Of a DNA stretch of 64,000 nt, positions 40,521-41,441 are shown piece by piece. The stretch spans positions 7,564,001-7,628,000 of the forward strand of contig OX597841.1 of the NCBI GenBank assembly GCA_951406725.2, given 5' to 3'. Each line of letters begins with the position of its first letter. The stretch's first letter is position 1. A program made the translations under genes and the position numbers. The notes under the pieces were generated by a model that was not told the origin of the DNA, searched no databases, and saw only the letters and a list, made by a program, of their open reading frames with translations. Source of the stretch: Octopus vulgaris (Eukaryota).

Positions 40521-40522
<2 letters not shown>

Positions 40523-41441
40523 TTTTATTCTTTTATTTGTTTCAGTCATTTGACACCGGCCATCCTGGAGAAGTGCCTCAACCGCAAAACTTATTTGTAA
40601 GCATAGTATTTATTCTATCGTTCTCTTTTGCCGAACTGCTTGGTGACATGAACGTAAACACAGCATCGGTTGTCAAGCGATGTGGGAGGGAGCTATTTGA
40701 TACACAAACTGTATCCATATAAACTTCGAACAAGGGAGGTCAGTCGCTCCACACTACTTGACCGGCAGCTACAGACGCGTTTCGGGGTATTGCCCCTTTT
40801 CAATGCAGCGTAGCCAGACCAGTAGGTGTCGCTTCTGACAATCTCTGTTCGAAGGTTTTATTTACCTAGCTTCGGTGGAATACATCCACTTGTTTTCAAG
40901 TTATATGGATACAGTTTGTGTATCAAATAGCTAACTTAAGGCGATGGCCTCATGGAGCTAATAAGCGGACAGCTTTTTTCTTATTTTTATAAGAATGCCA
41001 TATTAGTATGGCGATAACTATTATATATATATACATATACATATATTCTTTTATTCTTTTATTTGTTTCAGTCATTTGACACCGGCCATCCTGGAGAAGT
41101 GCCTCAACCGCAAAACTTATTTGTAAGCATAGTATTTATTCTATCGTTCTCTTTTGCCGAACTGCTAGGTGACATGAACGTAAACACAGCATCGGTTGTC
41201 AAGCGATGTGGGAGGGAGCAAACACGGACACACAAACACATACTCTCACATACGCACACACACACACAAGCATATACGTGACGGGCTTCTTTCAGTTTCC
41301 CTCTACCAAATCCACACACAAGGTTTTGGTTGGCCCGAGGCTATAGCAGAAGACACTTGCCCAAGATGCCACGCAGTCGGACGGAACCCGGAAGCATGTG
41401 GTTGCTAAGCAAGTTACTTACCACACAACCATTCCTGCGCC
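40521..41441 (-). mobile_element. SINE family B (41047-41441) with its 3' 173 bp duplicated at 40521-40693
   Basis: The two segments differ at 1 visible position and are offset by 526 bp. Confidence 0.9.
40691..41020 (-). mobile_element. Fold-back element with 32-bp perfect arms and a hammerhead-like motif (40768-40809)
   Basis: AGCTATTTGATACACAAACTGTATCCATATAA (40691-40722) is the reverse complement of 40901-40932. Minus strand reads GCTGCA-TTGAAAA-GGGG-CAATA-CCCC-GAAAC-GC-GTC-TGTAGC. Confidence 0.8.

What the first reader, a model, noticed from the sequence alone, without database searches (positions are those of the whole stretch)
40521..41219. Ribozyme-capped rod-like hairpin inserted with a 173-bp target duplication
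Seen: perfect 32-bp outer arms and an imperfect inner stem (TTCGAACA..GTCAG..TACT..GCTAC / GTAGC..AGTAG..CTGAC..TGTTCGAA). A hammerhead-like motif at the tip has GAAAC-GC-GTC and stems I/II intact, with the core decayed to TTGAAAA. The insert is flanked by a 173-bp direct duplication of a SINE tail (1 mismatch), with AGC microhomology at the left junction and TA at the right. Inference: this one recent event links the fold-back class, the hammerhead class and TA targeting, and it implies widely staggered strand joining during integration.
Basis: partly seen in the sequence, partly recalled or inferred. Interest (0 to 1): 0.72.

Follow-up and report, generated by a model that had tools for sequence, protein, structure and literature searches.

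The report
Penelope-type retrozyme with one-off flank duplication
This is one copy of a young, dispersed family of small repeats carrying a predicted self-cutting RNA motif, likely pasted in by Penelope-type retrotransposon enzymes, and the long duplication beside it is seen in only 1 of 89 copies examined, so it is likely an accident of this one event and not the way the family inserts.

Summary
The described sequence features are real; the reading needs three corrections. (1) The insert is two truncated, back-to-back arms of a 363-bp non-coding repeat with roughly a thousand copies in this genome. The 32-bp arms are just the overlap of those two arms. (2) The TTGAAAA core is not decayed: it is the known U3-A8 hammerhead variant, conserved across copies, with compensated stems. 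(3) The 173-bp duplication is not the family's target duplication: 1 of 89 copies has one; others show about 8-14 bp or sit in TA runs. The family has Penelope-type ends: 68 of 69 two-armed copies with canonical ends start one arm at monomer position ~206 and the other at ~269, and both arms share variants, as if copied from one template. The window copy lacks the 206 end; its left arm starts at an AGC microhomology unique in the genome. Best reading: a non-autonomous Penelope-dependent retrozyme whose second end joined aberrantly, probably during insertion; later template switching remains possible. The empty-allele test was not done. This scan already reported the same family-level pattern, and the LINE that targets such repeats, on other DNA.

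The parts
40496..40520 (.). TA run left of duplicate 1; differs from its counterpart left of duplicate 2 at 40508 and 40514
40521..40693 (-). Duplicate 1: 173-bp 3' part of the neighbouring SINE-like repeat; carries the derived base at 40641
   Evidence: duplicate 2 and 5 of 7 other window copies show A, 2 not read
40691..40693 (+). AGC microhomology shared by duplicate 1 and monomer positions 361-363; junction type found once in the genome
40691..40899 (+). Left arm: monomer positions 361 to 206 (209 nt), non-canonical outer end, one private substitution
40724..40854 (-). Inner stem-loop, intrinsic to the monomer RNA (positions ~30-165)
40768..40809 (-). Type I minimal hammerhead motif, U3-A8 core variant, palindromic helix III, predicted cut after 40774
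40889..40900 (.). Centre junction of the two arms, over an imperfect microhomology (a 6-nt overlap at the same spot is used in L002)
40900..41024 (-). Right arm: monomer positions 269 to 30 (125 nt), canonical outer end abutting TA; inner end at the foot of the hairpin
40901..40932 (-). Right 32-bp 'outer arm' = monomer positions 361-29, which both arms happen to cover
41025..41046 (.). TA-rich target run with two C interruptions
41047..41219 (-). Duplicate 2, in its native place in the SINE-like repeat
41047..41440 (-). Host SINE-like repeat, 66-80% alike to at least 8 other window copies; head with A/B-box-like motifs read by eye (ARAGORN finds no tRNA)

Best explanation
The insert is one copy of a 363-bp non-coding, hammerhead-bearing repeat, present as two truncated back-to-back arms, that was likely pasted into a TA run by a Penelope-type reverse transcriptase, and the 173-bp duplication is unique to this copy and likely arose when the second target end was joined aberrantly during that insertion. 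Shown: monomer length, two fixed outer ends 63 nt apart, one per arm, variable microhomology-joined centre, TA targeting, tandem monomers in arms, shared variants across arms, uniqueness of the long duplication. Inferred: the RNA is the hammerhead strand. Each nicked target end would prime cDNA at one of two internal start sites on the same multimeric or circular RNA, and the two cDNA ends would anneal in the middle. In this copy the right end primed normally at 269 and stalled at the hairpin foot. The left end did not prime at 206. It likely first carried or copied about 195 nt of right flank (TA run plus SINE tail), then switched to the RNA at AGC (position 361). A wide stagger of the second cut would give the same product. 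My odds: element identity 0.9; duplication atypical of the family 0.95; duplication formed during insertion 0.55.
For: Family: 1280 first-look candidates, 40 scored. TA-joined 269 ends: 480 matches on the reverse strand, one per locus in the rows listed, so roughly 1000 loci. Of 89 distinct loci, 74 are two-armed; 68 of 69 with two canonical ends pair a 206 end with a 269 end (binomial p 2e-19 against independent choice), and 125 of 137 canonical ends touch TA. This matches the two RT start sites and 'tail' shown in vitro for anole PAc (PMC11167929, parts 1-2 of 4 read) and the one-sided tail plus inverted truncated copy of PLEs (PMC8557442, passages). 83 of 164 arm segments exceed one monomer, up to 1427 nt. 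Across arms, polymorphic sites agree in 551 of 566 pairs against 379 expected, and 8 locus-private variants are shared by both arms. Inner ends pile up at positions 27-47, the hairpin foot (25 of 105). The window element has 1 private change in about 333 nt and the duplicates differ at 1 of 173, compatible with the same age. Other arms also start near position 360: L069 (360), L167 (357), L175 (5), L253 (360), two of them directly from TA.
Against: No autonomous partner sharing the monomer's sequence was found among 30 GIY-YIG loci and 10 extended ones, so Penelope dependence rests on insertion anatomy. Genome-wide, TA-primed starts at positions 356-1 number only 2 loci against 1 in a control window, so position ~360 is not an established start site. 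The TA runs before the two duplicates differ at 2 of 25 sites, which a strict staggered cut does not predict. 96 private variants occur in a single monomer against 9 shared; this fits later mutation, but gene conversion between arms could also produce the sharing. Loci were the best-scoring candidates of three queries, not a random sample; L006 and L011 share flanks and L008 shares one. No empty allele, no RNA data and no cleavage assay.
Confidence: 0.55

Rival explanations
1. Same element, but the duplication came later. A normal insertion (206 end and 269 end, both in TA) was rearranged by a microhomology template switch, either from an empty allele onto the filled allele at AGC, or on one chromatid after slipping past the hairpin through the TA runs. 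This removes positions 206-360 and doubles the SINE tail.
For: Explains the missing 155 nt of left arm, the non-TA junction and the unequal TA runs with no extra mutation. Junction type unique in the genome. Copy-and-paste events that re-replicate a host segment around an insert are described as cycles of templated insertion (PMC7025897, passages; cancer genomes).
Against: A random breakpoint in the left arm would fall in the 357-5 window only about 3% of the time (my estimate), yet 3 of the 5 other non-canonical outer ends in the 89-locus sample lie there. The duplicates are no more diverged than the element's age predicts.
Confidence: 0.33
2. One reading: widely staggered strand joining is the family's integration mechanism, so long duplications are its signature.
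For: The duplication begins in the TA run at the canonical right end. Long target duplications exist for other retroelements: Dualen, median 900 bp, and R9, 126 bp (PMC9977147, passages; R9 seen second-hand there).
Against: 1 of 89 loci. Readable duplications at other loci are 8, 13 and 14 bp (L002, L024, L178) and about 12 bp (L042).
Confidence: 0.04
3. Assembly chimera of an empty and a filled haplotype.
For: The structure is exactly left half of an empty allele plus right part of a filled allele; 3 differences in 198 nt could be allelic. No read support was obtained.
Against: The join has only 3 nt of homology, which sequence-graph assemblers do not normally merge (own knowledge). Other copies start at the same monomer region.
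Confidence: 0.07

Closest known systems
Metazoan non-LTR retrozymes (Cervera and de la Pena 2020, PMC7229834, passages read; Li, Clavereau and Pollet, bioRxiv 10.64898/2026.07.22.740005, parts 1-3 of 5 read)
   Same: Non-coding tandem monomer of 363 nt (mussel repeats are 350-390 bp), 40% GC, type I hammerhead in each monomer, strongly folded; PLEs proposed as the mobiliser.
   Different: Minimal helix III with a U3-A8 core, more like PLE hammerheads than the canonical retrozyme ones. Copies are mostly two-armed inversions with two fixed ends, an anatomy not described in the passages read. No sequence link to an autonomous PLE found here. RNA and cleavage untested.
EN+ Penelope-like elements: anole PAc (PMC11167929), Adineta Pen2a (PMC3846280, passages), overview PMC8557442
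   Same: Inverted truncated arm, two ends defining a one-sided tail, AT-rich targets, short target duplications (8-10 bp in Adineta), hammerhead upstream of the RT start sites.
   Different: No ORF (longest 38 aa). Tail is 63 nt rather than 30-40. Both arms can hold several monomers. A ~200-bp duplication is not reported for PLEs in what I read.
Schistosoma Cercyon PLE minimal hammerhead with U3-A8 covariation (PMC4209133, passages)
   Same: Same core change and palindromic helix III, expected to work as a dimer.
   Different: Here it lies in a non-coding tandem monomer; activity of this sequence is untested.
Long target duplications of Dualen and R9 LINEs; cycles of templated insertion (PMC9977147, PMC7025897, passages)
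   Same: Host segment re-replicated on both sides of an insert.
   Different: Those are LINE-specific traits or repair events; here it is a 1-in-89 exception in a PLE-type family.

Membership tests
Non-LTR retrozyme | Tandem monomer of 150-450 bp with a type I hammerhead in each unit | tested here: met
   363-bp monomer, arms up to 1427 nt; motif in each unit
Non-LTR retrozyme | Non-coding, GC under 50%, no LTR architecture | tested here: met
   GC 0.405, longest ATG ORF 38 aa; arm maps
Non-LTR retrozyme | Canonical type I hammerhead with loop 1-loop 2 contacts | tested here: inconclusive
   Stems I and II covary, but the core is the minimal U3-A8 type; tertiary contacts not examined; no Rfam hit
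Non-LTR retrozyme | Expressed as linear and circular monomer RNA | not tested
   No reads were laid; multimer arms and shared variants are indirect only
Non-LTR retrozyme | Self-cleavage in vitro | not testable with these tools
   Needs a transcription assay; 8 of 9 Xenopus dimers did not cleave in the preprint
Non-autonomous Penelope-like element | Two fixed 3' ends (tail) with an inverted truncated arm | tested here: met
   68 of 69 two-armed loci with canonical ends
Non-autonomous Penelope-like element | AT-rich or microsatellite target with short target duplication | tested here: met
   125 of 137 canonical ends at TA; 8-14 bp duplications where readable; the window copy itself is the exception
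Non-autonomous Penelope-like element | Sequence shared with the terminal repeat of an autonomous PLE in the same genome | tested here: inconclusive
   None among 30 of 148 GIY-YIG matches fetched (6136 candidates, 150 scored) and 10 extended loci; one family has the same core type and TA targeting but no homology
Autonomous PLE | RT plus GIY-YIG ORF | tested here: not met
   the only coding DNA inside copies is an inserted LINE
DNA fold-back transposon / MITE | Identical terminal inverted repeats and fixed internal structure | tested here: not met
   The two ends differ by 63 nt and the centre varies from copy to copy

The most novel reading that the evidence does not exclude
Each insertion is made by two Penelope reverse transcriptases working on one ribozyme-cut RNA circle at once, one from each of two fixed start sites and each primed by one target end, and the enzyme can run through flanking DNA before jumping onto the RNA. 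The window copy would be a snapshot of that DNA-to-RNA jump, and the same machinery would also copy circles or multimers that carry a full 5.4-kb LINE.
Probability: 0.25. Interest if true: 0.68.

Novelty: new member of a known kind. Interest (0 to 1): 0.38.

Why it matters
How Penelope-like elements make their inverted arms and one-sided tail is still open, and retrozyme mobilisation by PLEs is proposed from co-occurrence and homology in the papers read. This young family gives a countable rule (one long-site arm plus one short-site arm in 68 of 69 copies, with shared variants across arms) and a 363-nt substrate that can be tested with a purified PLE protein. I did not find that rule in print, but earlier notes of this scan report it for other octopus families. 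The long duplication itself matters little: it is a single aberrant event.

Tried and rejected
Empty-allele and read test: not obtained. The run search listed 24 runs, no RNA holder listed; no run was laid, so its shares are no evidence. A search of the genome with right-flank DNA hit another repeat family and showed no second haplotype of this locus. One family search returned no candidates. Autonomous partner: the shared flank of L018, L063 and L064 proved to be an inserted LINE, not a PLE. A 781-aa RT/GIY-YIG family shares core type and TA targeting but no sequence. 'Left arm is exactly one full circle': dropped, because the 206 inner end is explained by a microhomology also used in L002. 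'Third RT start site near 360': not established, 2 loci against 1 control and about 1000 canonical; kept only as weak support. 'LINE carried purely as cargo from one capture': weakened, because the LINE sits in both major monomer haplotypes with matching duplications and one copy is 5'-truncated with an intact duplication. Wider flank scans of 18 aberrant or single-armed loci found no further direct duplication. A paper search on long L1 duplications failed on a short term and was not repeated. Supplements were not read; those of the bioRxiv preprint are closed and could list related families.

Full report
1. Observation. The duplication, the 32-bp arms, the inner stem, the hammerhead motif and the AGC and TA junctions are all at the stated place. 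The duplication is 173 bp with one mismatch and reaches 198 nt at 98% when the TA run is included. The hairpin is interrupted by 46 nt on its right side, and about 90 nt of element lie outside it.

2. What the insert is. A search of the own genome (2.8 Gb; the label 'octopus' comes from earlier notes and recall, not from a call of mine) gave 1280 candidates, 40 scored. The hits define a 363-bp monomer, numbered from L002, 40% GC, longest ORF 38 aa. I mapped 89 distinct loci from three queries and one fetch: 70 fetched with 6 duplicates dropped, then 30 fetched with 5 dropped. 74 are two-armed inversions and 15 single-armed. For the count I classed outer ends as 205-209 (plus L042 at 197, a TA/ATT over-extension) or 264-277. 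I took the true outer ends of three LINE-interrupted copies, merged two left hits in L037 and used two of four hits in L061. Result: 68 mixed, one 269/269, no 206/206, and five with one non-canonical end. Centres vary and mostly overlap by 2-5 nt. Both start sites begin with the same 7 bases, which resemble the TA target. The window copy is left arm 361-206 plus right arm 269-30, so the 32-bp arms are simply the positions both arms cover, while the inner stem belongs to the monomer.

3. Ribozyme. The core reads U3 U4 G5 A6 A7 A8 A9. Cervera and de la Pena report U3-A8 in place of C3-G8 in Schistosoma PLE hammerheads (PMC4209133, passages), and Frangieh et al. show that a C3/G8 double change partly rescues cleavage. 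Each core position is conserved in at least 106 of 109 arm copies (arms under 94% identity left out, gaps ignored). In 7 aligned sequences, including older relatives at 72-85%, 98% of cells pair, 5 of 14 pairs change on both sides, U3-A8 never varies and helix III stays palindromic; 0 of 500 shuffles reach this. The structure was drawn from the window copy and the rows are related, so this is supportive, not a probability. A separate coding PLE family in the genome has the same core type. Cleavage is untested.

4. Mechanism of the family (inferred). Two fixed ends 63 nt apart, one per arm, match the two internal RT start sites and tail of PAc (PMC11167929) and the one-sided tail with inverted truncated copy of PLEs (PMC8557442, PMC3846280). 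Arms longer than one monomer (83 of 164) and cross-arm agreement at polymorphic sites (551 of 566, 379 expected) suggest both arms come from one multimeric or circular template. A homogeneous source locus or gene conversion could also give this. Inner ends are enriched at the hairpin foot (25 of 105 in loci L031 onward), as expected if the enzyme stalls there. No homologous autonomous partner was found.

5. The duplication. Flank against flank over up to 900 nt found a junction-adjacent direct duplication in the window copy only. L042, the one locus with a short flank, was extended and shows about 12 bp plus a nearby 26-bp repeat. Wider scans of 18 aberrant or single-armed loci found nothing more. 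Readable duplications elsewhere are 8-14 bp; in pure TA runs they cannot be read. L173 has a 536-bp inverted flank repeat of unknown origin. The window's left junction is the only exact match in the genome to position 361 preceded by three non-T bases. So the long duplication and the missing 206 end go together in one exceptional copy.

6. Timing. For insertion time: compatible ages (1 private change in about 333 nt, 1 difference in 173) and other arm starts at 357-5. Against: those starts are barely above a control genome-wide (2 against 1), and the two TA runs differ, which fits flank copying or later switching better than a clean stagger. I put insertion-time joining at 0.55, later switching at 0.33, assembly error at 0.07.

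7. Comparison and novelty. It works like a non-autonomous PLE and fits the structural definition of an animal retrozyme; RNA-level features are untested. The link between retrozymes and PLEs is in print (PMC7229834, passages; preprint 10.64898/2026.07.22.740005, parts 1-3 of 5, which has no octopus or tail mention). Searches did not show the paired-start rule or a long PLE duplication. Earlier notes of this scan describe the same two-start anatomy and the LINE targeting on other DNA; none matched this sequence or place. Verdict: new member of a known kind; the duplication is a one-off; interest 0.38.

Noticed in passing
L071, L072, L073, L104-L115, L119: A 5.36-kb two-ORF LINE (zinc knuckle; endonuclease-RT) joins the monomer at one exact base in 20 of its 21 best-scoring 3' ends, with a ~17-bp duplication. 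19 such copies form one clade (100/99; one short copy left out). It occurs in both major monomer haplotypes, so repeated targeting is likely. Already reported by earlier notes.
   Followed up: partly
L118:7796, L117:2432-2448, L226: Older relatives of that LINE end exactly at the first base of a U1 snRNA gene (Rfam 125 bits) or carry the first 17 nt of U1 at their 5' side.
   Followed up: partly
L104, L105, L119: Hints that the Penelope-type machinery also copies LINE-bearing units: LINE 3' end in both arms of L104, a rare haplotype plus LINE shared by L104 and L105, and a LINE cut off at the centre junction in L119.
   Followed up: partly
G000:C2:73046510-73068615 (L082, L085, L090, L091, L093, L115): Five LINE copies in tandem, mostly separated only by the target duplication.
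   Followed up: no
L191:4192-6822 (= L173): Element flanked by a 536-bp inverted repeat at 98% identity; either inserted into a pre-existing fold-back or both arms primed from the same side.
   Followed up: partly
L150:1280-3996 (= L069): Element whose right arm starts at 360, followed 155 bp later by a 5'-truncated coding PLE on the same strand; possibly a chimeric insertion, possibly chance.
   Followed up: partly
L151, L154: Young coding PLE family with a 781-aa RT/GIY-YIG frame, an upstream 359-aa frame, U3-A8 hammerhead core, TA targets and two ends about 37 nt apart.
   Followed up: partly
L002, L066: Two non-TA insertions at nearly the same spot of another repeat family.
   Followed up: no
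window:41578-41785: Another young dispersed repeat (711 candidates, best hits 93-96%) with fold-back fragments nearby.
   Followed up: no
window:46001-50000: GC 0.61 with GC skew 0.91, probably a G-rich simple satellite.
   Followed up: no
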